From contig JAZSQL010000014.1 of the NCBI GenBank assembly GCA_045537965.1, forward strand, positions 4,256 through 68,255: 64,000 nt of DNA, in the 5' to 3' direction. A model generated the notes under the pieces. That model worked only from the letters and a program-made list of their open reading frames with translations, did not search any database and was not told the DNA's origin. Of the stretch, positions 2,163 through 15,468 are shown piece by piece; positions within the stretch are counted from its first letter, which is position 1; each line of letters begins with the position of its first letter. Source of the DNA: Alphaproteobacteria bacterium (GTDB lineage: Bacteria > Pseudomonadota > Alphaproteobacteria > RF32 > CAG-239). A program made the position numbers and the translations under genes.

Positions 2163-3554
2163 ATGGTAAATATAGGTGCAATAAGTCCAGAATTTGTTGC
2201 TAATATTTCTAGTAATATTTTTATTCAGGTAACGAAGTCTGGTAAGATTTTGTTTTTTAATACCAAAGCAAATTGTGTTTTGGGAAAAGTTGTTGTTGGT
2301 TGTAATTTAGAAGAAATAATCCCTAAAAGTAGTAGTTGTATTTTGTTGCAAAATATTAAAATATCTTTTTATCATCAATATCCTCATCATTTTTATTGGG
2401 GTTTTAAAAATAGGTTTTATTTGGTATATGTTTATCCCCAAGATAGCAGTGTTTGGTTATGTTTTGATGATATAACAGAAAAAAGACAATTAGCTCATCT
2501 TTTGCATATGAATAATCAAAGAACTCTGTTTGCCGAGAGGTTGGCAAAGTTGGGGTATTGGGAACTTGATATTGAAACAAAGAGATTTTATTGGTCTGAT
2601 GAAGTATATAATATATTTGGTATTACAGAAAAAGATAAAACTTATAAAAAAAATCTGATTAGAGAATTTGTTCATCCTAATGATTTGGCACTGTATAAAC
2701 AAAAGTTGAAAGAACTTGTAAGTATAGGTAATGAAGTTGATGGTATTATTAGAATATTGACGGCTGATAATATTACAAAATATTGTAAATTTGTTGCAGG
2801 GTTTATTTATGAAAATGGAGAACCTAAAATAGCTGGAATATTTCAGGATATTAGTATGTTAATAGGAGAGCAAAAACAGCTTAAACAAGCCAAAACAAAG
2901 GCTGATAAATTGAATGCTGAAAAATCTTATTTTTTGGCTCAGGCTAGTCATGATATTAGACAGCCGCTACAGGCAATCAATTTATTTGCAGAGGGTTTGA
3001 AATCAGCTCCTTTAGAAAAATATCCCGAAATAGCGGATAACATTTTGATAGTTAGTCGTAATTTGAATGTATTGTTAAATAATGTGTTAGATATATCTAA
3101 ACTTGATGCTGGTGGAATTTGTTTTAATCCAACAGAATTTGATCTAGGAAAATTGCTTGCTAAATTTTGTGATGAATATGGGATTATTATGCAAGAAACA
3201 GAAATTTCTTTGGCTTGTAATATAAAGAATGTAATTGTTAGACAAGATGTAGTTTTGTTGGAAAGAATTATAAGAAATCTTTTAAGTAATGCCATTAAAT
3301 ATGCGAAAAGTAAAATAAAAATAGGAAATAGTAAAAATTGTTTTTGGATTATAGATGATGGTTGCGGTATAGATAAAAACAATAAGAAACATATATTTGA
3401 ACCGTTTTATCAATGTAACACATTAAGAGATAGAGCAATTGGCGGAACAGGTTTGGGACTTAATATCGTTAAAAAAATTGCAACAGCGATAGGTGCTGAT
3501 ATAAAAGTAAAATCAAAATTAAATTCATACACAATATTTAAGGTGTGTCTATAA
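2163..3554 (+). CDS. Soluble PAS-domain sensor histidine kinase (orphan, no adjacent response regulator)
   Basis: H-box SHDIRQPLQAINLF, N-box LLSNAIKYA, G-boxes IIDDGCGI and GGTGLGLNIVKKIA. PAS-like segment LGYWELDIETKRFYWSDEVYNIFGI. No TM helix. Confidence 0.85.
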   Translation: MVNIGAISPEFVANISSNIFIQVTKSGKILFFNTKANCVLGKVVVGCNLEEIIPKSSSCILLQNIKISFYHQYPHHFYWGFKNRFYLVYVYPQDSSVWLCFDDITEKRQLAHLLHMNNQRTLFAERLAKLGYWELDIETKRFYWSDEVYNIFGITEKDKTYKKNLIREFVHPNDLALYKQKLKELVSIGNEVDGIIRILTADNITKYCKFVAGFIYENGEPKIAGIFQDISMLIGEQKQLKQAKTKADKLNAEKSYFLAQASHDIRQPLQAINLFAEGLKSAPLEKYPEIADNILIVSRNLNVLLNNVLDISKLDAGGICFNPTEFDLGKLLAKFCDEYGIIMQETEISLACNIKNVIVRQDVVLLERIIRNLLSNAIKYAKSKIKIGNSKNCFWIIDDGCGIDKNNKKHIFEPFYQCNTLRDRAIGGTGLGLNIVKKIATAIGADIKVKSKLNSYTIFKVCL

Positions 3555-3642
3555 GTTCTAGTATATCTTATTTAAAGCATTTGCAATTGTTTTATTTTTG
3601 ACATAAAATACGGTCTGATTTTAATAATTTGACGGTGTATTT

Positions 3643-5406
3643 ATGTTTAAGAAACTAAAAGCTAAACTAAAAAATAATAATATGATTCACAATTATTCTA
3701 AGATGTGGAAATATGTTAAGCCATATTGGGGAAGAGCTTTGTTAGCTATGCTCATAACAATTCCAATTGGTGCGATGGACGCAGTAATTGCGTGGGCACT
3801 AAAACCCTATATGGATGTGGTTATGATTGAAAAGGGTGCTAGCTATACTGCTTATATACCGTTGATGATTGTTTTATTTACACTTATTCAAAGTGCTTTT
3901 AATTATTCTGCGACGTATCTTAATACTTGGGTTGGGCAAAAAGTTTCAATAGGTTTAAAGACTGATTTGTATCATAAATTATTACGTTATGATGCAGGTT
4001 TTTTTGATAAACGTAATTCAGGGGAAATTGTTTATCGTTTTAATGGTGATGTTGATACTAGTTGTAATGGTTTATTGACAAACCTTAAGCTTTTTACAAC
4101 AAGGTTGTTTTCATCTTTATCGTTAATAGCTGTGCTTTTTTATAATTCATGGCAGTTGGCTGTTGTGGCTGTAGTTGTTTTGTTTGGAGCATTATATCCA
4201 TTGACAACAGTTAAGCGCAAAATAAAACCTTTAGTATCAAAGTCAGTTTTTTCGGGATCGTCTGTCGTTACTCATTTTAATGAAACGTTTAGTGGTAATA
4301 GGATTATAGCGTCTTATAATTTGTATGATTATCAGTTGGGAAAGTTTAGAACTACGTTGCATGAGTGTTTTCGTCTTGGAATTAAGATGATACAAAGAAC
4401 GGGTATTATGTCACCGATGATGCATTTTATAGTTTCGATTGGTATTGCTGTTGTTATTTGGTTGGGAAGTTATCTTATTGTAACTCATACTATTACTCCT
4501 GGAAACTTTGTTTCGTTTATTGCTGCGTTAATTATGTTGTACACGCCAATAAAGGCTATAGGCAACAATTATAATGCGGTACAAATGGCTTTGTTAGCAA
4601 TGGATCGTGTTTTTGAGCTTTTGGATGGTAAGTCTGAAATTGCTAGTAAACGTGGGGCTCAAAAGATGAATGGGTTAAAAAAAGGAATTGAGTATAAAAA
4701 CGTTTGTTTTGAGTATGAAAAAGATAAGCCTGTATTAAAAAATATTGATTTGAAAATAAAGAAAGGTGAAACAATAGCCTTTGTTGGTAACTCTGGTGGT
4801 GGAAAATCAACAATGGTTAATTTGTTGCCTCGTTTTTATGATGTTAAAGGTGGAGAGCTTTTGTTTGATGGTGTAAATATTAAAGATTTGGATTTAGATT
4901 CATTGCGTAATAATATTGCAATTGTTTTTCAAGATAATTTTTTGTTTGCAGGGACGATTAGAGACAATATTATGCTTGGTAAATTAGATGCGACTGAACA
5001 AGAAGTTAATTTGGCTGTAAAGAATGCTTGTTTAGAAGAATTTGTGGCTGGATTAGAAAAAGGATTAGATACACCTATTGGTGAAAGAGGAGCATTGTTA
5101 TCTGGTGGTCAAAAGCAAAGAATTGCTATAGCTAGAGCTTTTTTGAAAAATGCACCTATTGTTATTTTGGATGAAGCGACATCTGCCTTAGATAATAAAT
5201 CAGAAGCAGTAGTTCAACAAGCAGTTGAAAATTTGATGAAGGATAGAACAGTATTTATTATTGCACATAGGTTATCTACGGTTAGAAATGCTGATAAGAT
5301 AGTTGTTATCAATTATGGTGAATTAGCTGAAATGGGGACGCATGAAGAGTTGTTAAATAAGAAAGATTCTATATATGCTTCCTTGTATCAGTCGCAGTTA
5401 AAATAA
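3643..5406 (+). CDS. ABC exporter, fused permease-ATPase (MsbA/lipid flippase-like)
   Basis: Hydrophobic N-terminal half. Walker A GNSGGGKST, ABC signature LSGGQKQRIAIARA, Walker B VILDEATSALD, H-loop IIAHRLST. Confidence 0.85.
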   Translation: MFKKLKAKLKNNNMIHNYSKMWKYVKPYWGRALLAMLITIPIGAMDAVIAWALKPYMDVVMIEKGASYTAYIPLMIVLFTLIQSAFNYSATYLNTWVGQKVSIGLKTDLYHKLLRYDAGFFDKRNSGEIVYRFNGDVDTSCNGLLTNLKLFTTRLFSSLSLIAVLFYNSWQLAVVAVVVLFGALYPLTTVKRKIKPLVSKSVFSGSSVVTHFNETFSGNRIIASYNLYDYQLGKFRTTLHECFRLGIKMIQRTGIMSPMMHFIVSIGIAVVIWLGSYLIVTHTITPGNFVSFIAALIMLYTPIKAIGNNYNAVQMALLAMDRVFELLDGKSEIASKRGAQKMNGLKKGIEYKNVCFEYEKDKPVLKNIDLKIKKGETIAFVGNSGGGKSTMVNLLPRFYDVKGGELLFDGVNIKDLDLDSLRNNIAIVFQDNFLFAGTIRDNIMLGKLDATEQEVNLAVKNACLEEFVAGLEKGLDTPIGERGALLSGGQKQRIAIARAFLKNAPIVILDEATSALDNKSEAVVQQAVENLMKDRTVFIIAHRLSTVRNADKIVVINYGELAEMGTHEELLNKKDSIYASLYQSQLK

Positions 5407-5421
5407 GATAGAAAGCTAAAA

Positions 5422-5450
5422 GGTTTATCTAAAAAAGGTAAACCTTTTTT
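5422..5450 (+). terminator. Rho-independent terminator after the ABC exporter
   Basis: GGTTTATCT / AGGTAAACC 9-bp stem (one G-U pair), 5-nt A loop, then TTTTTT (5445-5450). Confidence 0.75.
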
Positions 5451-5506
5451 AATAAATGAGATATACAATATAAAATTGTGGTGTTTTTTTATAAGAGGGA
5501 TAGTAA

Positions 5507-8101
5507 ATGGCAAATAAAGAGGTAAAAACAGTTAAAGATTTAGAAGTCCTGATAAAGAAAGTGAAAGAAGCTCAGAAGATTTTTGCAACTTTTGATCAGG
5601 AGAAAATTAATAAGATTTTTAAGGCCGCAGCAACTGCTGCAGATAAGGCTCGTATTCCTTTGGCAAAAATGGCTGCAGCGGATACAGGTATGGGTATTGT
5701 TGAAGATAAGATAATTAAAAATCATTTTGCTGCAGAGTATATCTATAATAAATATAAGAATGAGAAAACCTGTGGTATTATAAAAACAGATAAGACCAAT
5801 GGAATTAAAATAGTGGCTGAGCCTTTAGGGGTTGTAGCTGGGGTTATACCAACAACTAATCCAACATCAACAGCTATATTTAAATCGTTAATTTGTTTAA
5901 AAACTAGAAATGCTATTATCTTTTCGCCTCATCCAAGAGCTAAAAAATCAACAATTGAAGCTGCTAAAGTAATTTATGAAGCGGCTGTTAAAGCGGGAGC
6001 TCCAGAAAATATTATTGGTTGGATTGATGAGCCATCGTTAGAGTTGACAGATTTGTTGATGAAACATCCTGATGTACATGGAATTTTAGCAACAGGCGGT
6101 CCAGGTATGGTTAAGGCAGCATATTCTTCTGGTAAGCCTGCGTTAGGTGTTGGAGCAGGTAATACCCCTGCTGTTATTGATGAAACTGCAGATATTGAAA
6201 TGGCTGTTTCATATATATTAATGTCAAAAACTTTTGATAATGGTATGATTTGTGCGTCTGAACAATCAGTTATTGCAGTTAAGTCTGTTTATGAAAAAGT
6301 AAAACAAGAATTTGTACGCAGAGGTGCATATTTGTTGACAGCTAAAGAAGCTGATAAATTGGCAAAAATTATTCTTACGCCAAAAGGTGTTAATGCAGAA
6401 ATAGTTGGACAGCCTGCAACAAAAATAGCTAAGATGGCTGGGATTGTAGTTCCTGAAACAGCTAAAATTTTATTAGCAGAACAAACTTCAACAGATATTA
6501 CAAATCCCTTTGCTCATGAAAAATTATCTCCTATTTTGACGTTATATAAGGCTGATGATTTTGAGGGTGCTGTTGATAAGGCTTTGGTCTTAGTGGAACT
6601 TGGAGGAATGGGGCATACTTCGGTTTTGTATACTGATACTAGAAAGCAAGATAGAGTAGATTATTTTGCTAAGAAGCTTCCTACAGGACGTTTGTTAATT
6701 AATTCTCCTTCATCGCAAGGTGGTATTGGTGATTTGTTTAACTTTAAATTAGAACCGTCTTTGACTTTAGGATGTGGTTCTTGGGGTGGTAATTCGGTTA
6801 GTGAAAATGTTGGAGTTAAACACTTATTGAATTATAAGACAGTTGCTGAGAGGAGAGAAAATATGTTATGGTTTAGAGTACCACCAAAAATTTATTTTAA
6901 ACGTGGGGCGACAGATATTGCTTTGCGTGAGTTAGAAGGTAAGAAGAGAGCCTTTATTGTGACAGATCGTTATTTGTTTGATTCTGGTATGGTCAATGCT
7001 ATAACTAACGTCTTAGAAGATATGGATATTGAATATCAAATCTTTTTTGATGTTAAGCCAGATCCAACTGTTGCAACAATTAATGAAGCCTTGATGATGG
7101 TTAATGTGTTTAAACCTGATGTGTTTATTTCTTTTGGTGGTGGTTCGCCAATGGATGCGGCCAAGATTATGTGGCTTAAATATGAAAAGCCTGAGATTGA
7201 ATTTGAAGATGTAGCTATGCGTTTTATGGATATTAGAAAACGTATTTGTACAATTGGCGAGTTGGGTAAAAAAGCTTTGATGGTTGCTATTCCTACAACA
7301 TCAGGTACTGGTTCAGAAGTTACGCCATTTGCAGTTATTACCGATGATGAAAGTCATGTGAAATATGCTATTGCTGATTATGCTTTGACACCTAATATGG
7401 CTATTATTGATGCAAACTTCGTTGATAATATGCCAAAAGGTTTGACATCAGCTGGTGGTATCGATGCTTTGGTGCATGCTATCGAGGCTTATGTTTCAGT
7501 AATGGCTACAAACTTTACAAACTCAACAGCTTTAGAAGCTATTAAGCAAGTGTTTAGATATTTGCCAAGAGCTTATAAAGATGGAGCTAACGATCCTAAA
7601 GCTAGAGAAAAAATGCATCATGCAGCAACAATTGCCGGTATGGCGTTTGCAAACTCGTTTTTGGGTTTGTGTCATTCTATGGCTCATAAACTTGGAGCAG
7701 CATTTAATATTCCACATGGAATTGCTAATGCTTTGTTAATTAGCCAAATAATTAAATATAATGCAACTGATTGTCCACGCAAGCAAGCTATATTTCCTCA
7801 ATATAAAATGCCTGAAGCTAAAAGACGTTATGCGCAAATTGCCAGTAACTTAAAGCTTAAAGGTAAAACTGATGATGAAAAAGTTGTTTCTTTGATAGAG
7901 GCAATTGAGGAATTGAAAAAAGAAGTTGAAATTCCTTCGTCAATCAAAGATTTGGGAATTAGTAAAAAAGATTTTGAGGCTAAGTTAGATTGGTTAGTTG
8001 AAAATGCTTTTGATGATCAGTGTACAGGTGCTAACCCTGTGTATCCGTTAATGGAAGATATTAGAAAAATTTATCTTGATGCTTACAATGGAAAGATATA
8101 A
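5507..8101 (+). CDS. adhE: Bifunctional acetaldehyde-CoA / alcohol dehydrogenase
   Basis: 864 aa. N-terminal aldehyde dehydrogenase half (ATGGPGMVKAAYSSGKPALGVGAGN, catalytic-region MICASEQS) fused to an iron-type ADH half (GGGSPMDAAK, HxxxH region HSMAHKLGAAFNIPHG). RBS AGAGGGA upstream. Confidence 0.95.
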   Translation: MANKEVKTVKDLEVLIKKVKEAQKIFATFDQEKINKIFKAAATAADKARIPLAKMAAADTGMGIVEDKIIKNHFAAEYIYNKYKNEKTCGIIKTDKTNGIKIVAEPLGVVAGVIPTTNPTSTAIFKSLICLKTRNAIIFSPHPRAKKSTIEAAKVIYEAAVKAGAPENIIGWIDEPSLELTDLLMKHPDVHGILATGGPGMVKAAYSSGKPALGVGAGNTPAVIDETADIEMAVSYILMSKTFDNGMICASEQSVIAVKSVYEKVKQEFVRRGAYLLTAKEADKLAKIILTPKGVNAEIVGQPATKIAKMAGIVVPETAKILLAEQTSTDITNPFAHEKLSPILTLYKADDFEGAVDKALVLVELGGMGHTSVLYTDTRKQDRVDYFAKKLPTGRLLINSPSSQGGIGDLFNFKLEPSLTLGCGSWGGNSVSENVGVKHLLNYKTVAERRENMLWFRVPPKIYFKRGATDIALRELEGKKRAFIVTDRYLFDSGMVNAITNVLEDMDIEYQIFFDVKPDPTVATINEALMMVNVFKPDVFISFGGGSPMDAAKIMWLKYEKPEIEFEDVAMRFMDIRKRICTIGELGKKALMVAIPTTSGTGSEVTPFAVITDDESHVKYAIADYALTPNMAIIDANFVDNMPKGLTSAGGIDALVHAIEAYVSVMATNFTNSTALEAIKQVFRYLPRAYKDGANDPKAREKMHHAATIAGMAFANSFLGLCHSMAHKLGAAFNIPHGIANALLISQIIKYNATDCPRKQAIFPQYKMPEAKRRYAQIASNLKLKGKTDDEKVVSLIEAIEELKKEVEIPSSIKDLGISKKDFEAKLDWLVENAFDDQCTGANPVYPLMEDIRKIYLDAYNGKI

Positions 8102-8138
8102 GCTAATGTAAAATTAATCCATTGTATTGGAGGGGAAA

Positions 8139-8381
8139 ATGTCAAAAAAGATACAAGTTTGTATGGGAAGTTCTTGTTTTGCAAGAGGCAATAATAAGAA
8201 TTTGCAAGTTATTACAAAGTATCTTAAAGACAATAATTTAGACGCAGAGATTGAACTGTGTGGATTGAGATGTTGTAATCTCTGCTCTAAAGGTCCTAAT
8301 TTGACCATTGATGGTAAAGAATATGATAATGTTGATACAGGAACACTTATTGATATTTTGGATAAGACTTTTAAGGAGTAA
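8139..8381 (+). CDS. Thioredoxin-like [2Fe-2S] ferredoxin (HfsA / NuoE-fold-like small subunit)
   Basis: Cys pattern CMGSSC ... CCNLC (Cx4C ... Cx3C). ATG at 8139 is preceded by GGAGGGG, so the track TTG at 8127 is probably not the start. Ends 3 nt before the HydS-like gene. Confidence 0.7.
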   Translation: MSKKIQVCMGSSCFARGNNKNLQVITKYLKDNNLDAEIELCGLRCCNLCSKGPNLTIDGKEYDNVDTGTLIDILDKTFKE

Positions 8382-8384
8382 TTA

Positions 8385-10145
8385 ATGTCTAGCCGAGAGC
8401 ATCCTCTTTTTACGATTAAAAACAACTGTCAGGATTGTTATAAATGTGTAAGGCAATGTCCTGTAAAAGCAATTAAAATTGAAGAAAATTCAGCACAAAT
8501 AGTGCCAGAGCTTTGTGTTGCTTGTGGTAAATGTTATAAAATATGTCCAGTAAGAGCAAAACAAGATAGAGATGATGTTACTCGGGCAAAAAATATGTTG
8601 GCAATGGGTGAAAAAGTTTATGTTTCATTGGCACCGTCGTGGATTGCTGAATTTGATAATGTTACAAAAGAACAATTATTGACAGCAATTGAGAAGTTAG
8701 GTTTTGCGGGAGTTAGTGAAACAGCTCTTGGAGCTGAAGAAGTTTCTGCTCATGTGGCGGAATTTTTGAGCGATAAAAAAACAGGAGTTTTTTTATCAAC
8801 AGCATGTCCTGCATTTGTTGAGTATATTAGGAAATATAGACCAGAATTAACCAAGAATTTAACTCCTGTTATGTCTCCAGTTTTAGCGCATAGCAAAATT
8901 ATGCGCGCTAAATTAGGCGAAGATATTAAAATAGTATTTGTTGGTCCATGTATTGCTAAAAAATTTGAAGCTGACAGAAATGCTGATTTGCTAAATTTAA
9001 GTATTTCCTTTAGGGATTTGCGTAGGTGGTTAAGAGAATCTGGTATTAATTATCATAATATTGAACCTAAAAATAAGATTGATTTTGTTTGCAAACGAGC
9101 TGAAGAGGGGCGGTATTATCCTATTGAAGGTGGTATGATTGAAACGATAACGCATTATAATAAAACAAAAGATGTTTATATGATGCAACTTACAGGTTTG
9201 GAAAATATTCAAAGAGAATTATCCGATATTGATGGTACCAACCCAGAAAAAGCTGTATTTATAGAATGTTTGGCTTGTGAGGGGGGGTGTGTTAATGGTC
9301 CTTGTACTCGTTCGCATAAATCTGGCTTTGAAAAAAGAGCTAGAGTTATAAAAGATGTTAAGCTTGGTGAAAATACAGGTAATCGAGAATATAGTTATGA
9401 TATTGATTGTAGCTATGATAATGCTCCAGTTGAACAGAAAAAATATGATGAAGATCAAATAAAAAGAGTGTTAGCATTATTGGGTAAGCACACTATTGAA
9501 GATGAAATAAATTGTAATGCTTGCGGATATGACAATTGTCGCAATTTTGCTAGAGCTATTTTGGAAGGAAAAGCTGAAATTGATATGTGTGTTTCACATA
9601 TTAAACACCAAGCTCAACGAAAAGCCAATGCTTTGTTAAAGTGTATTCCTTCACCAATTGTTATTGTTAATTCTAATTTATCAATTATTGAATATAATGA
9701 ACAATTTTTACAAGCTTTTTGGAATGATGAAGAACACGGCGATATTTATGACAGTAATAATTTAATAGGAGCTAATTTGCGTGATTTTGTTAGCTTTACT
9801 AACCTATTTTCAGCATCGCTAGAGTTAGGTGAAGATGTTAAACGTGAAAATGTGCATCATGATGAAAGGGTTTTTGATGTTATGGTGTTTAATATTGAGC
9901 AAAAACAAGTTGTTGGCGGTGTAATTACTGATGTTACTAAGGTGGAAATTAAGCGTGAAAAAATTGCTGAAAAAGCTAAGGAAGTTATTGAGAAAAACTT
10001 AGCAACAGTTCAGCAAATAGCGTGTACTTTGGGTGAGCATATGGCAGAAACCGAAGTTTTGTTGCGTTCAATTGCTAAAGATTATTCAGTAGGTGAAAGT
10101 GATAGACCAAATATTACTATTCGTAATAAAAGGGATAGTAAATAA
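8385..10145 (+). CDS. Sensory-type [FeFe]-hydrogenase-like protein with C-terminal PAS domain (HydS / HfsB-like, group C)
   Basis: Two ferredoxin motifs (CQDCYKCVRQCP, CVACGKCYKICP). H-domain motifs are LSTACPAF (Ala where catalytic enzymes have the first Cys of TSCCP), VGPCIAKKFE and ECLACEGGCVNGP. Extra Cys motif CNACGYDNCRNFARAILEGKAEIDMC (Cx2Cx4Cx16C). The C-terminal ~170 aa is PAS-like (IPSPIVIVNSNLSIIEYNEQF...). Confidence 0.8.
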   Translation: MSSREHPLFTIKNNCQDCYKCVRQCPVKAIKIEENSAQIVPELCVACGKCYKICPVRAKQDRDDVTRAKNMLAMGEKVYVSLAPSWIAEFDNVTKEQLLTAIEKLGFAGVSETALGAEEVSAHVAEFLSDKKTGVFLSTACPAFVEYIRKYRPELTKNLTPVMSPVLAHSKIMRAKLGEDIKIVFVGPCIAKKFEADRNADLLNLSISFRDLRRWLRESGINYHNIEPKNKIDFVCKRAEEGRYYPIEGGMIETITHYNKTKDVYMMQLTGLENIQRELSDIDGTNPEKAVFIECLACEGGCVNGPCTRSHKSGFEKRARVIKDVKLGENTGNREYSYDIDCSYDNAPVEQKKYDEDQIKRVLALLGKHTIEDEINCNACGYDNCRNFARAILEGKAEIDMCVSHIKHQAQRKANALLKCIPSPIVIVNSNLSIIEYNEQFLQAFWNDEEHGDIYDSNNLIGANLRDFVSFTNLFSASLELGEDVKRENVHHDERVFDVMVFNIEQKQVVGGVITDVTKVEIKREKIAEKAKEVIEKNLATVQQIACTLGEHMAETEVLLRSIAKDYSVGESDRPNITIRNKRDSK

Positions 10146-11321
10146 ATGACTGATTCTTTGTTTATTGAAATAGGTTCGCATCAAGAACATAAGCATAGCG
10201 AAAGTTGTTTTGGTGATGCTATTGTTTCTAAAAAGTTGCCAGAAGAACAAAGAATAATATCAGTTTTGTCTGATGGTTTAGGTAGTGGTGTAAAAGCTAA
10301 TATTTTGTCATCTATGACAACAAGAATGGCTATGAAATTTATTGAAAGTGATCTAGACTTAGTTCGTTCTGCAGAAGTTATGATGCAAGCATTGCCAGTG
10401 TGTCAGGTTAGAAAGATTAGCTATGCAACTTTTTCCATTGTAGATGCGATGTTAGAAGGAAAAACTCGTGTTTATGAAATGGACAATCCTGCGTGTTTTA
10501 TAATGCGTAATTTTGAGCAGATGACTCTACCTCATCATGAAATTACAGCAGATAATTGGAAAGACAGAATTATCAATGTTTATCAGTTTTTAGCGAAAGA
10601 AGAAGATAGAATCATTATAATGTCTGATGGGGTAACACAGGCTGGTTTGGGTAATCCAAAATATCCTTTAGGGTGGCAAAGAGAAGGTGTTTGGAAATTT
10701 ATTGAAAATCAAGTTCGGCGTCATCCTCATATTTCTGCTAGCGCATTAGCGGAGGCAATTGTTCATGAGGCTTTGTCTAAAGAACCAGAGGGTAAAGCTG
10801 GTGATGATATTAGTTGTACGGTAATATATTTTAGAAAACCTAGGAAACTTTTGCTGCTTAGTGGACCGCCATTTGATGAGGAAAAAGATAAAGAAATTGC
10901 TGAAATGATAGATTATTATGATGGTAAAACGGCAATTTGTGGTGGAACAACGGCAAATATCATTGAAAGAGAATTGTGTCTTAAATGTGAGATGGATAAA
11001 ACAACTTTTGATCCTAACATTCCGATGGCATCAATAATGCCTGGGATTGATTTGGTTACGGAAGGTATTCTTACATTAACAGATGTTTATCGTATGTTAA
11101 AAGAAGGTGTTGACGAAGATAAAGATAATGCAGCTGTAAGATTAGCAAATTTGTTGCTTGATTCTGATAAGATAGATTTTGTTATTGGAACAAAAATTAA
11201 TGAAGCACATCAGGATCCTAATTTACCAATGGAGCTTGACATTCGTAGAAATATTGTTAAAAAGATTTTTAGATTATTACAAAGCAAATTCTTAAAAGAG
11301 ATAAGCGTAAAATATGTTTAA
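10146..11321 (+). CDS. PP2C / SpoIIE-family serine phosphatase (HfsC-like)
   Basis: SVLSDGLGSGVKANILS and IIIMSDGVTQAG metal-binding Asp motifs, plus GDDISCTVIYF. Its start codon abuts the HydS-like stop (TAAATG). The C-terminal ~150 aa is an extra domain of unknown role. Confidence 0.8.
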   Translation: MTDSLFIEIGSHQEHKHSESCFGDAIVSKKLPEEQRIISVLSDGLGSGVKANILSSMTTRMAMKFIESDLDLVRSAEVMMQALPVCQVRKISYATFSIVDAMLEGKTRVYEMDNPACFIMRNFEQMTLPHHEITADNWKDRIINVYQFLAKEEDRIIIMSDGVTQAGLGNPKYPLGWQREGVWKFIENQVRRHPHISASALAEAIVHEALSKEPEGKAGDDISCTVIYFRKPRKLLLLSGPPFDEEKDKEIAEMIDYYDGKTAICGGTTANIIERELCLKCEMDKTTFDPNIPMASIMPGIDLVTEGILTLTDVYRMLKEGVDEDKDNAAVRLANLLLDSDKIDFVIGTKINEAHQDPNLPMELDIRRNIVKKIFRLLQSKFLKEISVKYV

Positions 11322-11341
11322 TTTTAAAAGGACAAAAACAA

Positions 11342-11617
11342 ATGGAAAAGATAAAAGTTAAACTTTGTGCAGGTACCGCTTGTTTTGTTATGGGGGCACC
11401 TCAAGTTCAAGCTTTGGAGTTTTCTGCTCCAGAGGATATAGCTGACAAAATAGAGATTACAGAGGTTAGATGCATGAATCACTGTAATCAGGGACGTAAT
11501 TATAATAAAGGTCCATTTGTGGAAGTAAATGGTGAGTTGATTGAAGAAGCTACTTTTGAAAAAGTTGTGGCCAAAATTAGAGAGTTGATTGCTAAAGAGG
11601 AAAATGAACAGTGCTAA
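11342..11617 (+). CDS. Thioredoxin-like [2Fe-2S] ferredoxin, paralogue of 8139-8381
   Basis: CAGTAC ... CMNHC (Cx4C ... Cx3C) and GPFVEVNGE, as in the first copy (GPNLTIDGK). Overlaps the next gene by 7 nt. Confidence 0.7.
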   Translation: MEKIKVKLCAGTACFVMGAPQVQALEFSAPEDIADKIEITEVRCMNHCNQGRNYNKGPFVEVNGELIEEATFEKVVAKIRELIAKEENEQC

Positions 11618-13062
11618 TACCTAAGAATTATGCTAACCAAATGCGTACTAGAATTTTGGTTAAGGTTGTTGAAAGTTTTTATAAGGATAGATTTGAAACT
11701 GCGGATGAAATTCCAATAGATTTGCGTCCCAAGGATTATGATTCTAGTCGTTGTTGTATTTATAAAGATAGAGCTATTTTGAAATATCGTTTAATGGCTG
11801 CTATGGGAATTGCACCACATGAAGAAGTTAGCGAAGTTACAACTTTGCGTGAATATGGAAAAGAAGCTTTAAAACGTCAAAATCATGCTAAAAGTTGTTT
11901 ATCGGTAATTGATATTGCTTGTTCTGCTTGTGTTAAATCACAATATATGGTTACAGATGCTTGTCGAGGCTGTTTTGCTCGTCCATGTGTTATGAATTGT
12001 CCTAAACAGGCGATTTCATTTGTTAATGGAAAATCACATATTGATCCAGATTTGTGTGTGTCATGTGGAAAATGTATGGAGGTTTGTCCCTATCATGCTA
12101 TTGTTAAATTACCAGTTCCTTGTGAAGAGGCTTGTCCTGTAGGAGCTATTAAAAAAGATGAGCATGGTGTGGAACATATTGATGAAGAAACTTGTATTTC
12201 TTGCGGGAAATGTTTGCAGTCATGTCCTTTTGGGGCGATTGTGGAACGTTCGCAATTGGTTGATGTTTTGAATCTTATTCATAATAGCGATAAAAAGGTT
12301 GTAGCAATGTTGGCTCCAGCAATTGTTGGACAATTTCCTTTCGAACTCAACCAAGTTGTTGGCGCTTTGAAAAAAGCAGGTTTTGCTGATGTTGTTGAGG
12401 TTGCAGCTGGAGCAGATATTACATCAACAAATGAGTCGGCAGAATTTATTGAAAGAATGGAAGAGGGGGCTAATTTTATGACAACTTCTTGTTGTCCTGC
12501 ATATTTTAGAGCAGCCCAAGTTCATATTCCAGAACTTAAGCCTTTTGTTTCTCATACTAAAACACCAATGTATTATACAGCTGAAATGCTCAAAAAAGAG
12601 CAACCTGATTGTATTTCAGTGTTTGTTGGTCCTTGTTTGGCTAAGCGTACAGAAGCTGAATATGATCCTAATGTTGATTATGTTTTAACATTTGAAGAAA
12701 TAGGTGCGATGTTTGTTGGTGCAGGAATCGAAATAGGTGATTGTGAACCAATGGAATTTGCTAAAGTTTCTTCGGCTCAAGCTCGTAAATACCCATTATC
12801 TGGTGGTGTTGCAGCTGCGGTAGGTAATTTGGTTGAAGGTAAGGTTGATTTTAGACCAGAAAGAATCGATGGTTTGAGTAAAGAAAATATCAAATTACTG
12901 AAGCGTTATGCAACCAAAGGTTGTGAAAACAATATGATTGAAGTTATGTGTTGTGAGGGTGGTTGTATTGCTGGTCCTGGATGCATATCTTTAGCTAAAA
13001 AAGCAGCACGTCAGGTCGAGACTTATGTTGATAAAGGTCAAAACCAAAAAGATATGAAATAA
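11611..13062 (+). CDS. [FeFe]-hydrogenase, multi-ferredoxin-domain monomeric type (group-B-like)
   Basis: Several 4Fe-4S motifs (CSACV...CRGCFARPCVMNCP, CVSCGKCMEVCP, CEEACP, CISCGKCLQSCP). H-cluster motifs are TTSCCPAY (both Cys retained), VGPCLAKRTE and EVMCCEGGCIAGPGC. Start is GTG at 11611 or the ATG at codon 11. Confidence 0.8.
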   Translation: MLIPKNYANQMRTRILVKVVESFYKDRFETADEIPIDLRPKDYDSSRCCIYKDRAILKYRLMAAMGIAPHEEVSEVTTLREYGKEALKRQNHAKSCLSVIDIACSACVKSQYMVTDACRGCFARPCVMNCPKQAISFVNGKSHIDPDLCVSCGKCMEVCPYHAIVKLPVPCEEACPVGAIKKDEHGVEHIDEETCISCGKCLQSCPFGAIVERSQLVDVLNLIHNSDKKVVAMLAPAIVGQFPFELNQVVGALKKAGFADVVEVAAGADITSTNESAEFIERMEEGANFMTTSCCPAYFRAAQVHIPELKPFVSHTKTPMYYTAEMLKKEQPDCISVFVGPCLAKRTEAEYDPNVDYVLTFEEIGAMFVGAGIEIGDCEPMEFAKVSSAQARKYPLSGGVAAAVGNLVEGKVDFRPERIDGLSKENIKLLKRYATKGCENNMIEVMCCEGGCIAGPGCISLAKKAARQVETYVDKGQNQKDMK

Positions 13063-13080
13063 ATTTGTTTTATAAATAAT

Positions 13081-13117
13081 AAAGCCTCTCTGAAAAAAAG
13101 AGAGGCTTTATTATTTT
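13081..13117. terminator. Bidirectional intrinsic terminator between the hydrogenase gene and proS
   Basis: Perfect 11-bp stem AAAGCCTCTCT / AGAGAGGCTTT with a 7-nt loop. T-rich tail on the + strand, A-rich leader giving a U-tail on the - strand. Confidence 0.8.
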
Positions 13118-13122
13118 GCTAA

Positions 13123-14640
13123 CTAATAGCTTCTAGCGTAGATAACATCTAAAGTTGCTGGTTTGCCTGTAAGCAAGCATTCTCCTGTTGTACCTGATTG
13201 ATCAAATGGAATACAACGAATGGTGATTTTCATTGATTTCAATATTTCTTCGGTTGTTTCATCGCCACACCATTTACCACGAACAAAAGCAACTTTGCCT
13301 TGTTTGCCATCTTCAATCCATTCGTTAGAATTGGCAAAATATTCAGCAAAAGATTCTTTGGTTGTAATATCGTTTCTAATGTTAGCATCCATACGGTCTT
13401 TTGCCCTTTGGAACATTGTTGCTTGAATATCTTCGAGATATTTAGCAGCATTATTTACAAATTCATCGCGAGCAATTATTTTTTTGCCTTCAGGAGTATT
13501 GATATAGATACGAGTTTTAACCATCAAATTGTTACCATCTGCATCACGCTTACCAACTTCTAGAATTATAGGAGCTCCTTTACGTGTCCATTCCCAGAAT
13601 TTGTCAACAGATGCTTTGTCTCGTTTATCCAATTTAACACGTATTTTTTCGCCAAACGGCATTTGTTTTTGTAAATCAGATTGCAAAGATTTGATGTATT
13701 GCATTACTGCATCAGTATCTGCAACATTTTTAATAACAGGTACAATCACAATTTGATATGGAGCTATCTTTGGAGGGGTAACCATTCCTTCGTCATCGGC
13801 ATGAGTCATAATAACGCCACCAATTAGACGAGTTGAAACACCCCAAGATGTAGTATAAGCATATTCTTGTTGGTTGTTTTTGTTTACAAACGAAATATTT
13901 GCAGATTTAGCAAAGTTTTGACCTAAGAAATGAGATGTACCTGCTTGCAATGCTTTGCCATCTTGCATCATTGCTTCAATACAATAGGTGTCAACGGCTC
14001 CTGGAAATTTATCATATTCTGGTTTGCGTCCAATGATTACAGGCATAGCTAAAGTTTCTTCGCTTAGTTCGCGATATGCTTCAAGCATTAATTTAGTTTC
14101 TTCTTCGGCTTCTTGATATGTCGAGTGAGCTGTATGTCCTTCTTGCCACAAAAATTCACGAGTGCGCAAGAAAAGACGAGGGCGCATTTCCCAACGGACA
14201 ACGTTTGCCCATTGGTTAATCAAAACAGGTAGGTCACGATATGATTTTACCCATTTAGAAAAAGAATCGGCAATAATTGTTTCAGAAGTTGGACGAACAA
14301 TCAAAGGTTCATCAAGTTCAGAAGAAGGTTTTAATTTGCCATTTTCTGATGCCAAGCGAGAATGGGTAACAACGGCCATTTCTTTGGCAAAACCATCAAC
14401 GTGTTCAGCCTCTTTTTGAAAAAATGAAAGCGGAATAAACATTGGAAAATAGCAGTTTTCATGGTCGGTTGATTTTATTTTTTCATCAAATACATCGCGT
14501 ATGCGTTCCCAAATTCCATATCCCCAAGGTTTTATAACCATACAACCTGGAGATGAAGAGTTTTCAGCCATATCTGATTCTGCTACAACGCATTGATACC
14601 ACTCTGGGTAATTATCTTTTCTAAGTTTTTTGATAGTCAT
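13123..14640 (-). CDS. proS: Prolyl-tRNA synthetase, archaeal/eukaryote-like type
   Basis: N-terminus YPEWYQCVVAESDMAE...GCMVIKPWGYGIWERI, class II core, no long INS insertion. C-terminal domain ends ...LDVIYARSY. The start is moved to the ATG at 14640 (MTIKKL), which has an AGGA RBS; the track start at 14697 has none. Confidence 0.9.
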   Translation of the reverse strand: MTIKKLRKDNYPEWYQCVVAESDMAENSSSPGCMVIKPWGYGIWERIRDVFDEKIKSTDHENCYFPMFIPLSFFQKEAEHVDGFAKEMAVVTHSRLASENGKLKPSSELDEPLIVRPTSETIIADSFSKWVKSYRDLPVLINQWANVVRWEMRPRLFLRTREFLWQEGHTAHSTYQEAEEETKLMLEAYRELSEETLAMPVIIGRKPEYDKFPGAVDTYCIEAMMQDGKALQAGTSHFLGQNFAKSANISFVNKNNQQEYAYTTSWGVSTRLIGGVIMTHADDEGMVTPPKIAPYQIVIVPVIKNVADTDAVMQYIKSLQSDLQKQMPFGEKIRVKLDKRDKASVDKFWEWTRKGAPIILEVGKRDADGNNLMVKTRIYINTPEGKKIIARDEFVNNAAKYLEDIQATMFQRAKDRMDANIRNDITTKESFAEYFANSNEWIEDGKQGKVAFVRGKWCGDETTEEILKSMKITIRCIPFDQSGTTGECLLTGKPATLDVIYARSY

Positions 14641-14749
14641 TTGTTTATTCCTTTTCATAACGTAATGAAATGCCCACACCCCCATTGGTGCAGGCATGCA
14701 GATAGAAATATAGCATATATTTTAATTTTGTGAAGTTTTTTCTTTAAGA

Positions 14750-15013
14750 TTAATCATTATGGTCTTTTTTATGTTTTTTATGCATTTTTTTACATTTTTT
14801 ACAACAATGTTTTATTTTTTTACAATCACACTCGTGTTTGTCAATTTTTTCTTTAATATCGTTTTTGGTTTCTTTAAAATCTTTAGAAATATCAGCTTCA
14901 ATTTTAGCAGGAATATCGTGAGATGTTGTGTTTTTGCGTTGAGCGTTGGCTGCACCAGATATGATCATTAATGCTGTTGGTAATAAAAATAGAAAAGCTA
15001 AATATTTTCGCAT
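14750..15013 (-). CDS. Small secreted Lys/His/Cys-rich protein
   Basis: Signal peptide MRKYLAFLFLLPTALMIISGAANA. Charged mature part ends HECDCKKIKHCCKKCKKMHKKHKKDHND. The ATG at 15013 is preceded by AAAGGAAAG. Confidence 0.55.
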   Translation of the reverse strand: MRKYLAFLFLLPTALMIISGAANAQRKNTTSHDIPAKIEADISKDFKETKNDIKEKIDKHECDCKKIKHCCKKCKKMHKKHKKDHND

Positions 15014-15203
15014 AATCTTTCCTTTCTTTTGGTATGATATCATAGAATAAATATTACTAAATTGTGAATTTCCAAGTATAGTACGCAAAATATTCTTGCT
15101 AATATAAAAAGAGTGTATTAGACTACAGAATGCGATGGGCTACTGTCGCAAGAACCAAAAGGGTTCGGTGATTAACCTGTTTTTAAGTGAAGGATATTTC
15201 GAG

Positions 15204-15437: not shown

Positions 15438-15468
15438 TTTGGTTTTGAACTCGTTCTCGTAAAACATT

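What the first reader, a model, noticed from the sequence alone, without database searches (positions are those of the whole stretch)
5507..13117. adhE appears co-transcribed with a sensory hydrogenase, a PP2C phosphatase and a second hydrogenase
Six same-strand genes are packed with junctions of +37, +3, 0, +20 and -7 nt. The only convincing terminators are at 5422-5450 (upstream) and 13081-13117 (downstream). HydS/HfsB-type sensors are known in Firmicutes to sit next to a hydrogenase (Ruminococcus albus hydS-hydA2). They also influence ethanol formation (Thermoanaerobacterium hfs mutants). Here the alcohol dehydrogenase, the putative H2 sensor, its phosphatase and an H2-producing enzyme are colinear in an unrelated chassis. 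That would make a compact switch choosing between the two electron sinks, H2 and ethanol.
Basis: partly seen in the sequence, partly recalled or inferred. Interest (0 to 1): 0.75.

Follow-up and report, generated by a model that had tools for sequence, protein, structure and literature searches.

The report
adhE fused to hydrogen-sensor hydrogenase operon
A gut alphaproteobacterium carries its ethanol-forming enzyme gene in one tight six-gene block with a putative hydrogen sensor, its phosphatase and a hydrogen-producing enzyme; the same kind of cluster is already published for Ruminococcus albus, so this is a new example in a new lineage, not a new principle.

Summary
Six + strand genes (5507-13062) have exactly the reported junctions and lie between two real terminator hairpins. 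They encode AdhE, a small 2Fe-2S protein, a HydS/HfsB-type sensory [FeFe]-hydrogenase (proton-relay Cys replaced by Ala, extra 4-Cys cluster, weak PAS), a SpoIIE-type PP2C phosphatase, a second small 2Fe-2S protein and a group B [FeFe]-hydrogenase.

The five-gene core is conserved across all 29 alphaproteobacterial loci with enough sequence to judge and across most of 51 Bacteroidota loci. adhE sits upstream in only one genus-level clade (13/13 loci). In that clade the strong fdxA promoter seen in adhE-less relatives is missing, which argues for an operon fusion. No RNA data were available.

Alcohol dehydrogenase genes joined the module independently in Bacteroidota: AdhE inserted internally in 5 loci and a stand-alone Fe-ADH in 13, often with nfnAB, rex and a sigma-54 activator.

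The concept is published. In R. albus 7, adhE, a ferredoxin-only hydrogenase, a sensory hydrogenase and a phosphatase form one co-regulated cluster (PMC6776011). In C. thermocellum, adhE lies two locus tags from hfs. Co-transcription implies co-induction of both sinks at high H2, not an either/or choice.

Verdict: new member of a known kind, moderate interest.

The parts
5418..5448 (+). Intrinsic terminator hairpin of the upstream ABC-exporter gene (3643-5406). It marks the 5' boundary of the unit.
   Evidence: -13.2 kcal/mol, z = -3.6, 13-bp stem followed by a T-run; compensatory stem changes across L001-L013.
5449..5506 (+). Conserved promoter/leader region of adhE. It holds a TTTTAATAA block, a TAnAAT box (TACAAT at 5464-5469), TTGTGG at 5476-5481 and the ribosome-binding site GAGGGA at 5495-5500.
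   Evidence: alignment of 12 related loci; sequence. The match to the sigma-70 consensus is only moderate (8-11 of 12). The promoter is inferred, not mapped.
5507..8101 (+). adhE, the bifunctional acetaldehyde-CoA/alcohol dehydrogenase (864 aa).
   Evidence: NF010378, 1384.7 bits against a cut-off of 951. Aldedh, Fe-ADH and ADH_Fe_C domains.
8139..8381 (+). fdxA, a thioredoxin-like [2Fe-2S] ferredoxin (80 aa, Cys8/13/45/49). Its stop codon is 3 nt from the hydS start.
   Evidence: PF01257, 37.4 bits. Cys positions; conserved directly upstream of hydS in nearly all 80 loci.
8385..10145 (+). hydS, a HydS/HfsB-type putative sensory [FeFe]-hydrogenase (586 aa). Sub-features: N-terminal 2x[4Fe-4S] at 8418-8558; H-domain at 8610-9302 with STACP at 8796-8810 (Ala140 replaces the proton-relay Cys); C-terminal 4-Cys cluster domain at 9507-9593; PAS-like region at 9648-9938.
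   Evidence: PF02906, PF04060 and PAS_9 at 21.7 bits (cut-off 27); alignment to HydA1 (8a6t) and CpI; invariant residues. PAS families hit in 13 of 23 relatives.
10146..11321 (+). pp2c (HfsC-like), a SpoIIE/RsbU-type PPM Ser/Thr phosphatase domain (10146-10835) plus a conserved alpha/beta C-terminal domain of unknown function (10839-11318). There is no gap after the hydS stop codon.
   Evidence: PF07228; invariant G23-D24, D43-G44, D161-G162, D220-D221; model pLDDT 87; 3pu9 TM 0.78, and SpoIIE; no PDB or Pfam match for the C-terminal domain.
11342..11617 (+). fdxB, a second thioredoxin-like [2Fe-2S] ferredoxin (91 aa, Cys9/14/44/48). It overlaps the hydB start by 7 nt.
   Evidence: PF01257, 28 bits. 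Cys positions; junction sequence.
11611..13062 (+). hydB (HfsD-like), a group B monomeric [FeFe]-hydrogenase (483 aa) with the canonical TSCCP motif (12484-12498).
   Evidence: TIGR04105, 541.1 bits against a cut-off of 450, full length; motifs.
13074..13116 (+). Strong intrinsic terminator hairpin, shared with the convergent prolyl-tRNA synthetase gene (13123-14697, - strand). It marks the 3' boundary of the unit.
   Evidence: -26.5 kcal/mol, z = -8.0, followed by TTATTTT; downstream gene identity.

Best explanation
The six genes most likely form one operon: adhE-fdxA-hydS-pp2c-fdxB-hydB. An hfs-type module has been fused behind the adhE promoter in one genus-level clade of gut Alphaproteobacteria. 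The module consists of a sensory [FeFe]-hydrogenase, a PP2C phosphatase and a group B ferredoxin-dependent hydrogenase, each hydrogenase-like protein with its own small 2Fe-2S partner.

Proposed working:
- Transcription starts in the conserved 58-nt region after the upstream terminator and runs 7.6 kb to the hairpin at 13074-13116.
- AdhE (the NADH sink) and HydB (the reduced-ferredoxin sink) are therefore made together, along with their sensor. This matches the 'high-H2 fermentation mode' described for R. albus.
- HydS has an H-cluster site but lacks the proton-relay cysteine. It would report H2 (or the ferredoxin/H2 redox poise) through its extra 4-Cys cluster and PAS-like domain to the PP2C phosphatase.
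- The phosphatase dephosphorylates a phosphoprotein that is not encoded in the cluster. This would feed back on expression or on enzyme activity.

Shown here: gene identities, junctions, boundary terminators, active-site motifs and conservation patterns. Inferred: the single transcript, H2 sensing, the direction of signalling and the phosphatase target.
For: Gene identities and junctions.

Boundaries: flanking terminators are real, and nothing comparable lies inside.

Operon fusion: adhE-less alphaproteobacterial relatives have a positionally conserved TTGCC(T/A)-17-TATA(A/C)T promoter 56-74 nt upstream of fdxA. It scores 10-12 of 12 in 13 of 16 loci. The adhE-linked clade shows only background-level matches (8-9 of 12, at scattered positions) and a gap of 37-58 nt.

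Linkage: kept in 13/13 loci of the clade.

Independent recruitment in Bacteroidota:
- AdhE is inserted 18-25 nt after fdxB in 5 loci.
- A stand-alone Fe-ADH lies near the module in 13 loci: 12 upstream on the same strand and 1 downstream. nfnAB lies upstream in 9 loci. A Rex-like ORF lies directly upstream of fdxA in 6 Bacteroidota loci, in one alphaproteobacterial locus and in Williamwhitmania.

Sensor features: Ala140 aligns with the first Cys of TSCCP, the SACP consensus is kept across the family, and C377/C380/C385/C402 are invariant. PAS families are hit in 13 of 23 relatives.

Phosphatase: catalytic Asp motifs are invariant and the fold is SpoIIE-like.

Literature:
- The R. albus cluster is co-regulated 111-fold by H2 (PMC6776011).
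- Deleting hfsB raises adhE transcripts and ethanol, and this requires hfsC/hfsD (PMC5707799).
- nfnAB and hfsD are needed for high ethanol yield (PMC12288451).
Against: - No RNA evidence was available. An internal promoter within the 3' end of adhE cannot be excluded; weak 8-9 of 12 matches exist.
- The promoter inferred upstream of adhE is itself only a moderate consensus match.
- No kinase, STAS protein or other obvious phosphatase substrate lies in the cluster, and none appeared among ORFs of 150 aa or more in the 64 kb.
- The PAS hit in the window protein is below Pfam's threshold, and a PDB sequence search with the C-terminal region (HydS residues 401-586) gave nothing relevant.
- The sensory role of group C enzymes is still called 'putative' in the literature (PMC8924675).
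- The rest of the genome was not examined for an electron-bifurcating hydrogenase, which the R. albus-type model needs.
Confidence: 0.65

Rival explanations
1. Either/or switch. The cluster selects between H2 and ethanol as alternative electron sinks, turning one up as the other goes down.
For: Deleting hfsB in Thermoanaerobacterium shifts flux from H2 and acetate to ethanol (PMC5707799). In Bacteroidota loci with an internal adhE, a strong hairpin separates adhE from hydB, which could allow differential expression there.
Against: In the window, adhE and hydB share one apparent transcription unit with no internal terminator. A transcriptional choice between them is therefore not possible. In R. 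albus the two enzymes are co-induced at high H2 and co-repressed 111-fold at low H2 (PMC6776011). A post-translational choice remains possible but has no evidence here.
Confidence: 0.12
2. Adjacent but separate transcription units. adhE is monocistronic and the five hfs-like genes are read from a promoter hidden in the 3' end of adhE. The adjacency would then be a lineage-specific accident of synteny.
For: The linkage occurs in only one genus-level clade, and 16 more distant alphaproteobacterial loci lack it. Weak promoter-like matches exist near the adhE stop codon, for example TAGAAA-16-TACAAT at 8062-8089. All 13 linked loci share the same flanks, so they count as a single evolutionary event.
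Against: There is no terminator after adhE. The ancestral strong fdxA promoter is lost and the gap has shrunk to 37-58 nt. Alcohol dehydrogenase genes joined the module independently in Bacteroidota. The linkage is also reported in R. albus and, by locus tags, in C. thermocellum. This recurrence makes chance adjacency unlikely.
Confidence: 0.15
3. HydS is not an H2 sensor. It is either a redox-pool (ferredoxin/NADH) sensor or a catalytic or regulatory subunit of a heteromeric HydS-HydB hydrogenase served by the two 2Fe-2S proteins. The PP2C phosphatase would tune enzyme activity directly.
For: Each hydrogenase-like protein has its own translationally coupled 2Fe-2S partner. Rex and NfnAB are recurrent neighbours, pointing to pyridine-nucleotide/ferredoxin balance. 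Changes in AdhE activity in hfs mutants are not fully explained by transcript levels (PMC5707799).
Against: The H-cluster ligands are all kept while the proton-relay Cys is lost. This is the pattern reported for the slow-turnover putative sensors TmHydS and TamHydS (PMC8924675). In Bacteroidota, fdxB is separated from hydB by adhE and a hairpin, so an obligate fdxB-HydB pairing is doubtful.
Confidence: 0.2

Closest known systems
Ruminococcus albus 7 eight-gene cluster: ferredoxin-only hydrogenase HydA2, bifunctional alcohol/aldehyde dehydrogenase, sensory hydrogenase HydS, Ser/Thr phosphatase (PMC6776011; Zheng et al. 2014 as cited there)
   Same: [quoted passage not shown] The authors describe it as co-transcribed and H2-responsive.
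   Different: The catalytic enzyme there is group A1; here it is group B (TIGR04105). That cluster has eight genes, and a paper citing Zheng et al. mentions an adjacent Ser/Thr kinase; here there are six genes and no kinase. It is said to lie on a plasmid of a Firmicute; here the cluster is on a 246-kb contig labelled as an alphaproteobacterial MAG. Gene order there was not checked.
hfsABCD operon of Thermoanaerobacterium saccharolyticum / T. thermosaccharolyticum (PMC5707799, PMC11837493)
   Same: The order is a small first gene, a PAS-containing [FeFe]-hydrogenase (HfsB), a serine phosphatase homologue (HfsC), then a ferredoxin-linked group B hydrogenase (HfsD). There is a genetic link to adhE expression and ethanol yield.
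   Different: adhE is elsewhere in that genome (Tsac_0416). The window has a second 2Fe-2S gene (fdxB) in front of the catalytic hydrogenase. HfsA is described as not aligning well with known proteins, whereas fdxA is a clear PF01257 protein. No direct sequence comparison could be made.
Clostridium thermocellum hfs operon Clo1313_1796-1793 next to adhE Clo1313_1798
   Same: adhE and the hfs genes are near neighbours, judged from locus tags. Deleting hfsB raises ethanol.
   Different: One further gene lies between them. Strand and transcription relationships were not checked here. The authors describe the hfs structure as 'slightly different'.
Bacteroidota clusters found here: sigma-54 activator, Fe-ADH, NfnAB, Rex, fdxA, HydS, PP2C, fdxB, (AdhE), HydB
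   Same: The five-gene core has the same order as in the window (HydS about 37-43% identical), and an alcohol dehydrogenase is linked on the same strand.
   Different: The alcohol dehydrogenase sits at a different position: AdhE after fdxB, or a stand-alone Fe-ADH upstream. These clusters also carry nfnAB, rex and a GAF(-PAS) sigma-54 activator, which are absent from the window. A hairpin lies between adhE and hydB.
Regulatory [NiFe]-hydrogenase system HoxBC-HoxJ-HoxA of Ralstonia eutropha
   Same: It works on the same principle: a hydrogenase-like H2 sensor controls expression of hydrogen-metabolism genes through protein phosphorylation (as summarised in PMC5707799).
   Different: The metal centre and protein family are unrelated. 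It uses a histidine kinase and response regulator instead of PAS and PP2C. It controls H2 uptake in an aerobe, not fermentative electron sinks.

Membership tests
Group C (putative sensory, HydS/HfsB-type) [FeFe]-hydrogenase | H-domain with the cysteine ligands of the H-cluster (L1 CP, L2 PC, L3 CxxxC) | tested here: met
   PF02906 at 163.8 bits. C141-P142, P188-C189, C298 and C302 are invariant in 23 relatives. Aligned to HydA1 (8a6t) and CpI.
Group C (putative sensory, HydS/HfsB-type) [FeFe]-hydrogenase | Loss of the conserved proton-relay cysteine next to the H-cluster (TSCCP changed) | tested here: met
   The motif is S138-T139-A140-C141-P142. A140 aligns with the first Cys of TSCCP. The family consensus is SACP. 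The criterion is taken from PMC8924675.
Group C (putative sensory, HydS/HfsB-type) [FeFe]-hydrogenase | C-terminal extra 4-Cys Fe-S motif followed by a PAS domain | tested here: inconclusive
   The 4-Cys domain is clear: PF04060 at 39.9 bits, with C377/C380/C385/C402 invariant. The PAS match in the window protein is only PAS_9 at 21.7 bits, below the cut-off of 27. PAS_8 hits 13 of 23 relatives (best E = 8e-7). A PDB sequence search found no PAS match.
Group C (putative sensory, HydS/HfsB-type) [FeFe]-hydrogenase | Gene adjacency with a Ser/Thr phosphatase or kinase | tested here: met
   The PP2C gene starts immediately after the hydS stop codon. This adjacency is conserved in all 79 fetched loci that extend past hydS; L039 ends before the position.
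Group C (putative sensory, HydS/HfsB-type) [FeFe]-hydrogenase | H2 binding with very low turnover; formal HydDB subgroup assignment | not testable with these tools
   This needs maturation, spectroscopy and activity assays. The HydDB classifier was not available.
Group B [FeFe]-hydrogenase (HfsD-type) | Full-length match to the curated group B1 model, with canonical H-cluster motifs | tested here: met
   TIGR04105 at 541.1 bits against a cut-off of 450, residues 6-459 of 483. TSCCP at 292-296, GPC at 340-342, CEGGC at 448-452.
PPM/PP2C phosphatase of the SpoIIE/RsbU type | PF07228 match, metal-binding Asp motifs and PP2C fold | tested here: met
   PF07228 at 40.8 bits (cut-off 25). G23-D24, D43-G44, D161-G162 and D220-D221 are invariant across 43 sequences down to 42% identity. 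The model has pLDDT 87. Best structural hits are 3pu9 (TM 0.78) and SpoIIE 5mqh/5ucg.
PPM/PP2C phosphatase of the SpoIIE/RsbU type | A partner-switching substrate (STAS anti-anti-sigma protein and kinase) encoded nearby | tested here: not met
   No STAS domain, anti-sigma kinase or Ser/Thr kinase appeared among the cluster genes or among ORFs of 150 aa or more in the 64-kb window.
hfsABCD operon (Thermoanaerobacterium) | Gene order: small gene, PAS hydrogenase, phosphatase, group B hydrogenase | tested here: met
   The order fdxA-hydS-pp2c-(fdxB)-hydB agrees with the description in PMC11837493, except for one extra small gene.
hfsABCD operon (Thermoanaerobacterium) | Orthology of each protein to HfsA-D by direct sequence comparison | not tested
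   The Hfs sequences (ACU11594-7) could not be fetched with these tools. Shaw et al. 2009 is not held.
R. albus-type adhE / sensory hydrogenase cluster | adhE, sensory hydrogenase, phosphatase and ferredoxin-dependent hydrogenase in one cluster | tested here: met
   compared with PMC6776011.
R. albus-type adhE / sensory hydrogenase cluster | Catalytic partner is a group A1 hydrogenase, and a Ser/Thr kinase is present | tested here: not met
   HydB is group B (TIGR04105 passes; the group A models TIGR02512, NF040762 and NF040763 score far below their cut-offs). No kinase lies in the cluster.
Single operon | Same strand, short or overlapping junctions, no internal terminator, terminators at both ends | tested here: met
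Single operon | One promoter only; transcripts spanning all junctions | not testable with these tools
   The comparative loss of the fdxA promoter supports this. Only RNA data can show it.

The most novel reading that the evidence does not exclude
AdhE itself, or its filament assembly, is the direct partner or phospho-substrate of the HydS-PP2C pair, so that H2 would control ethanol flux post-translationally. Three observations fit this reading. First, adhE has twice been fused transcriptionally to the sensor half of the module: upstream of fdxA-hydS-pp2c in the alphaproteobacterial clade, and in Bacteroidota 18-25 nt after fdxB with a hairpin between it and hydB. Second, no other phosphatase substrate is encoded nearby. 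Third, changes in AdhE activity in Thermoanaerobacterium hfs mutants are not explained by transcript levels alone (PMC5707799).
Probability: 0.1. Interest if true: 0.7.

Novelty: new member of a known kind. Interest (0 to 1): 0.4.

Why it matters
How fermenters sense H2 and divide electrons between H2 and reduced organic products is still described as 'putative' in the literature. The experimental base is a few Firmicutes.

This locus shows the same module in an uncultured gut alphaproteobacterial lineage, in a minimal form: six genes, no kinase, and apparently one promoter.

The comparison also shows that alcohol dehydrogenase genes, NfnAB and Rex have joined the module repeatedly in Bacteroidota. 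That is independent genomic support for the functional link between hfs, nfnAB, alcohol dehydrogenase and ethanol that was worked out genetically in Thermoanaerobacterium.

It also names a cultured carrier of the core module, Williamwhitmania taraxaci, in which the sensor hypothesis could be tested. The gain is incremental. It widens a known system and sharpens it (co-induction rather than choice), but it does not reveal a new one.

Tried and rejected
- Exact look-up of the HydS protein found no record. The window is 95.7-99.6% identical in nucleotides to SUUZ01000002.1 but not the same assembly.
- Rfam at gathering thresholds found only one tRNA (28910-28983). No known leader or riboswitch lies in the cluster.
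- A search for Rex operators or a shared palindrome upstream of adhE and fdxA found an ACAAT-N5-ATTGT palindrome overlapping the TAnAAT box in 7 adhE-linked loci (one mismatch allowed). There is no convincing Rex box, and the palindrome is not shared with the adhE-less promoters. I rejected it as evidence.
- A 9-bp inverted repeat spans the adhE stop codon (z = -1.3). It is not conserved in relatives, so I dropped it.
- The window's PAS histidine kinase (2163-3554) is not the orthologue of the divergent hybrid kinase next to fdxA in adhE-less relatives. They share only generic ATPase similarity.
- The first PP2C model, built from a shallow alignment, was poor (pLDDT 61). A more diverse alignment fixed this. 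Fold search is dominated by the PP2C domain, however, so the C-terminal domain stays unassigned.
- A PDB sequence search with the C-terminal region (HydS residues 401-586) gave no PAS match.
- Zheng et al. 2014 and Shaw et al. 2009 are not held. Their content is cited only through papers that summarise them.
- The generic terminator scanner missed both flanking terminators. I replaced it with folding and a custom scan.

Full report
**1. The observation**

The ORF table and sequence reads confirm six + strand genes:
- adhE 5507-8101
- a small ORF 8139-8381 (called fdxA here)
- hydS 8385-10145
- pp2c 10146-11321
- a second small ORF 11342-11617 (fdxB)
- hydB 11611-13062, with a GTG start

The junctions are +37, +3, 0, +20 and -7 nt, as reported. 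Every start codon has a purine-rich ribosome-binding site 8-11 nt upstream.

The two boundary terminators are real. The hairpin at 5418-5448 folds at -13.2 kcal/mol (z = -3.6). The hairpin at 13074-13116 folds at -26.5 kcal/mol (z = -8.0). Both are followed by T-runs. The upstream hairpin shows compensatory stem changes across related genomes.

The generic scanner missed both hairpins. Its terminator-like hits over 3000-16000 are at chance level (9 found, 6.8 +/- 2.2 expected). A custom scan that tolerates AT-rich stems found nothing inside 5507-13062 comparable to the flanking hairpins. The 37-nt adhE-fdxA gap does not fold better than shuffled sequence.

One caveat applies. The four upstream genes are also on the + strand, in a region of strong positive GC skew. 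Co-orientation alone means little.

**2. What the genes are**

- **AdhE** matches the equivalog NF010378 at 1384.7 bits, against a cut-off of 951.
- **fdxA and fdxB** are thioredoxin-like [2Fe-2S] ferredoxins (PF01257). Both have the CX4C...CX3C ligand pattern.
- **HydS** has two N-terminal [4Fe-4S] motifs, an H-domain (PF02906), a C-terminal 4-Cys domain (PF04060) and a PAS_9 match below threshold.
  - Aligned to solved hydrogenases, its L1 motif reads S-T-A-C-P where catalytic enzymes have T-S-C-C-P. The proton-relay cysteine is therefore Ala140. The best-scoring CpI entry (6gly) also shows Ala at this position in the printed alignment.
  - In 23 relatives down to 36% identity, the H-cluster ligands and the four C-terminal cysteines are invariant, and the consensus keeps SACP.
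  - PAS families are detected in 13 of the 23 relatives.
  - Loss of this cysteine plus a PAS domain is how the literature defines putative sensory group C enzymes such as TmHydS, TamHydS, RaHydS and TsHfsB (PMC8924675).
- **The phosphatase** matches PF07228 (SpoIIE).
  - Its metal-binding Asp motifs are invariant across 43 sequences down to 42% identity.
  - With a diverse alignment, the model reaches pLDDT 87. Its N-terminal 230 residues superpose on SpoIIE/RsbU-type PP2C structures (3pu9, TM 0.78).
  - Residues 232-391 form a conserved alpha/beta domain with no Pfam or PDB sequence relative.
  - The two-domain protein of about 390 aa is a sizeable family: 329 clusters at 50% identity with E <= 1e-30.
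  - It is the most conserved protein of the module.
- **HydB** passes the curated group B1 model TIGR04105 (541 bits against 450) and keeps TSCCP.

The flanking genes are unrelated to hydrogen or ethanol metabolism. Upstream lie a PAS histidine kinase and an ABC exporter. Downstream lie a convergent prolyl-tRNA synthetase gene and rubrerythrin.

**3. Where it comes from, and conservation**

The closest public record is SUUZ01000002.1, labelled 'MAG: Alphaproteobacteria bacterium isolate SIG59'. It is a 246-kb contig, and its HydS is 100% identical. Nucleotide identity to the window is 95.7-99.6%.

I fetched 80 loci from one-genome-per-species collections, with up to 10 kb of flank, and searched them with the six window proteins.

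- **Core module.** The five-gene core fdxA-hydS-pp2c-fdxB-hydB is present in the same order in every alphaproteobacterial locus with enough sequence to judge (L001-L029) and in most Bacteroidota loci with enough sequence (L030-L080).
- **adhE upstream.** adhE lies directly upstream only in L001-L013, where HydS is at least 79% identical. That is 13 of 13 loci, counting the truncated L006. These loci share the same flanking genes, so they represent one event in one genus-level clade.
- **More distant relatives.** In L014-L029 (HydS 47-63% identical) no adhE appears in the fetched flanks. The upstream neighbour there is usually a divergent hybrid histidine kinase.

**4. Evidence that the operon is a fusion**

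In the adhE-less alphaproteobacterial loci, fdxA is preceded by a strong, positionally conserved sigma-70-type promoter. It reads TTGCC(T/A)-17 nt-TATA(A/C)T, lies 56-74 nt before the ATG, and matches 10-12 of 12 positions in 13 of 16 loci.

In the adhE-linked clade, the best match in the 150 nt before fdxA is 8-9 of 12, at scattered positions. That is the background level. The spacer is only 37-58 nt and is conserved only at the ribosome-binding site.

By contrast, the 58-100 nt between the upstream terminator and adhE carry conserved blocks: TTTTAATAA, a TAnAAT box and TTGTGG.

The simplest reading is that the module lost its own promoter and is now read from the adhE promoter. This is an inference from sequence; no RNA data were available.

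**5. Independent recruitment of alcohol dehydrogenases**

- **AdhE inserted internally.** Five Bacteroidota loci (L038, L041, L053, L065, L067) carry a full AdhE, 62-63% identical to the window's, between fdxB and hydB. Their HydS proteins are 60-91% identical to each other. The fdxB-adhE gap is 18-25 nt. A strong hairpin lies in the 103-327 nt between adhE and hydB.
- **Stand-alone Fe-ADH.** Thirteen Bacteroidota loci carry a 388-aa stand-alone Fe-ADH. It is on the same strand upstream of the module in 12 loci and downstream in L065.
- **NfnAB and Rex.** In nine loci, nfnA-nfnB lie directly upstream of fdxA, or of rex-fdxA. A Rex-like ORF lies directly upstream of fdxA in six Bacteroidota loci (one of them a weak 22% match), in the alphaproteobacterial locus L028 and in the cultured Williamwhitmania taraxaci.
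- **Sigma-54 activator.** A GAF(-PAS) sigma-54 activator recurs nearby.

In total, 31 of the 80 fetched loci link an alcohol dehydrogenase gene to the module, through at least three different arrangements. A given single-copy gene has roughly a 1-in-1000 chance of being the immediate neighbour of another. Repeated independent linkage is therefore not chance (inference).

**6. What is already known**

PMC6776011 reports that the largest transcriptional response of R. albus 7 to a hydrogen-consuming partner is a 111-fold down-regulation. [quoted passage not shown] The authors propose that H2 sensing induces both enzymes at high H2.

In Thermoanaerobacterium, the hfsABCD operon has the same sensor-phosphatase-group B hydrogenase composition. 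Deleting hfsB raises adhE transcripts two- to three-fold and raises ethanol yield. This effect needs hfsC and hfsD (PMC5707799; PMC11837493). nfnAB and hfsD are both required for high ethanol yield (PMC12288451).

In C. thermocellum DSM 1313, the hfs operon is Clo1313_1796-1793 and adhE is Clo1313_1798.

The window's arrangement is therefore a further instance of a described kind of system. It combines the Thermoanaerobacterium module type (group B) with the R. albus-type adhE linkage, in a different phylum.

**7. How it most likely works**

*Shown here:* one compact gene block bounded by terminators; a sensor-type H-domain; an intact PP2C catalytic site; and translational coupling within fdxA-hydS-pp2c and within fdxB-hydB.

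*Inferred:*
- A single transcript co-expresses AdhE (the NADH sink) and HydB (the reduced-ferredoxin sink) together with the sensor.
- HydS reports H2, or the redox poise set by H2, via its accessory cluster and PAS-like domain to the PP2C phosphatase.
- The phosphatase acts on a phosphoprotein encoded elsewhere. That protein adjusts expression or enzyme activity.

One promoter serves both sinks, so the unit cannot choose between H2 and ethanol by transcription. It fits the R. albus logic instead. At high H2, NADH can no longer be disposed of as H2, so AdhE and a ferredoxin-only hydrogenase are needed together.

An Rnf complex lies 40 kb away in the window (52286-57188). It offers a route between the ferredoxin and NADH pools.

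*Open points:*
- The phosphatase substrate is unknown. No kinase or STAS protein was found in the 64 kb.
- The function of the conserved C-terminal domain of the phosphatase is unknown.
- It is not known whether the genome has a bifurcating hydrogenase.
- It is not known whether an internal promoter exists.

**8. Verdict**

The operon and gene identities hold. The 'either/or switch' and the implied novelty of the co-linearity do not.
- Novelty: a new member of a known kind.
- The most useful by-products are two. One is the comparative evidence for an operon fusion. The other is the wider Bacteroidota clusters joining Fe-ADH or AdhE, NfnAB, Rex and a sigma-54 activator to the sensor module.
- Interest: 0.4.

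Noticed in passing
L030, L033, L034, L036, L039, L048, L051, L052, L057 (e.g. L048:3291-14589): Many Bacteroidota genomes carry a larger same-strand cluster: sigma-54 activator (GAF-PAS-AAA+-HTH), stand-alone Fe-ADH (388 aa), NfnA-like, NfnB-like, Rex, fdxA, HydS, PP2C, fdxB, HydB. It physically joins the genes that Thermoanaerobacterium genetics links to ethanol yield (nfnAB, alcohol dehydrogenase, hfs). I found no paper describing this cluster, but I did not search for one specifically.
   Followed up: partly
L038, L041, L053, L065, L067 (e.g. L038:12926-17436): A full-length AdhE is inserted between fdxB and hydB. The fdxB-adhE gap is 18-25 nt. A strong GC-rich hairpin lies in the 103-327 nt between adhE and hydB (with a T-run in L053). 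It may be a partial terminator that uncouples hydB from the sensor-adhE transcript.
   Followed up: partly
L028:9095-9742; L081:5327-6013 (Williamwhitmania taraxaci GCA_900096565.1): A Rex-type redox repressor gene (PF06971 + PF02629 in L028) lies 10-11 nt upstream of fdxA on the same strand, in one distant alphaproteobacterial MAG and in a cultured Bacteroidales species. The latter is a possible experimental model for the core module.
   Followed up: partly
L014-L029, 56-74 nt upstream of fdxA (e.g. L017:9676-9704): A strongly conserved sigma-70-type promoter, TTGCC(T/A)-17-TATA(A/C)T, precedes the module in adhE-less alphaproteobacterial relatives. In most of these loci a divergently transcribed hybrid histidine kinase (HisKA-HATPase-REC) is the upstream neighbour.
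   Followed up: partly
window 10839-11318 (PP2C residues 232-391): The phosphatase has a conserved alpha/beta C-terminal domain with invariant residues in a CGGTT motif (265-269; G266, G267 and T269 invariant) and an AHQDP motif (354-358). It has no Pfam match and no PDB sequence relative. The whole protein is more conserved than HydS or HydB. Its role (docking to HydS, or substrate binding) is unknown.
   Followed up: partly
window 52286-58696, - strand: An Rnf complex gene cluster (two Rnf-Nqr membrane subunits, RnfD, RnfC) and ApbE lie here. This is a ferredoxin:NAD+ oxidoreductase that could connect the two electron pools served by HydB and AdhE.
   Followed up: no
window about 42000: Cumulative GC skew rises steadily to about 42 kb, then flattens or falls. 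Gene orientation switches from mostly + to mostly - at the same place. An FtsK/SpoIIIE gene lies at 47607-48851. This could be a replication terminus or an inversion boundary.
   Followed up: no
window 20366-24583, 36290-38986, 31176-32483: Three large ORFs (1405, 898 and 435 aa) have no significant Pfam match.
   Followed up: no
window 43611-44555, - strand: A Zeta-toxin domain protein (PF06414) is encoded here. No antitoxin partner was looked for.
   Followed up: no
window 5464-5481: A palindrome, ACAAT-N5-ATTGT, overlaps the TAnAAT box upstream of adhE. With one mismatch allowed it is present in 7 of 12 related loci. It could be an operator, but it is not a Rex box.
   Followed up: partly
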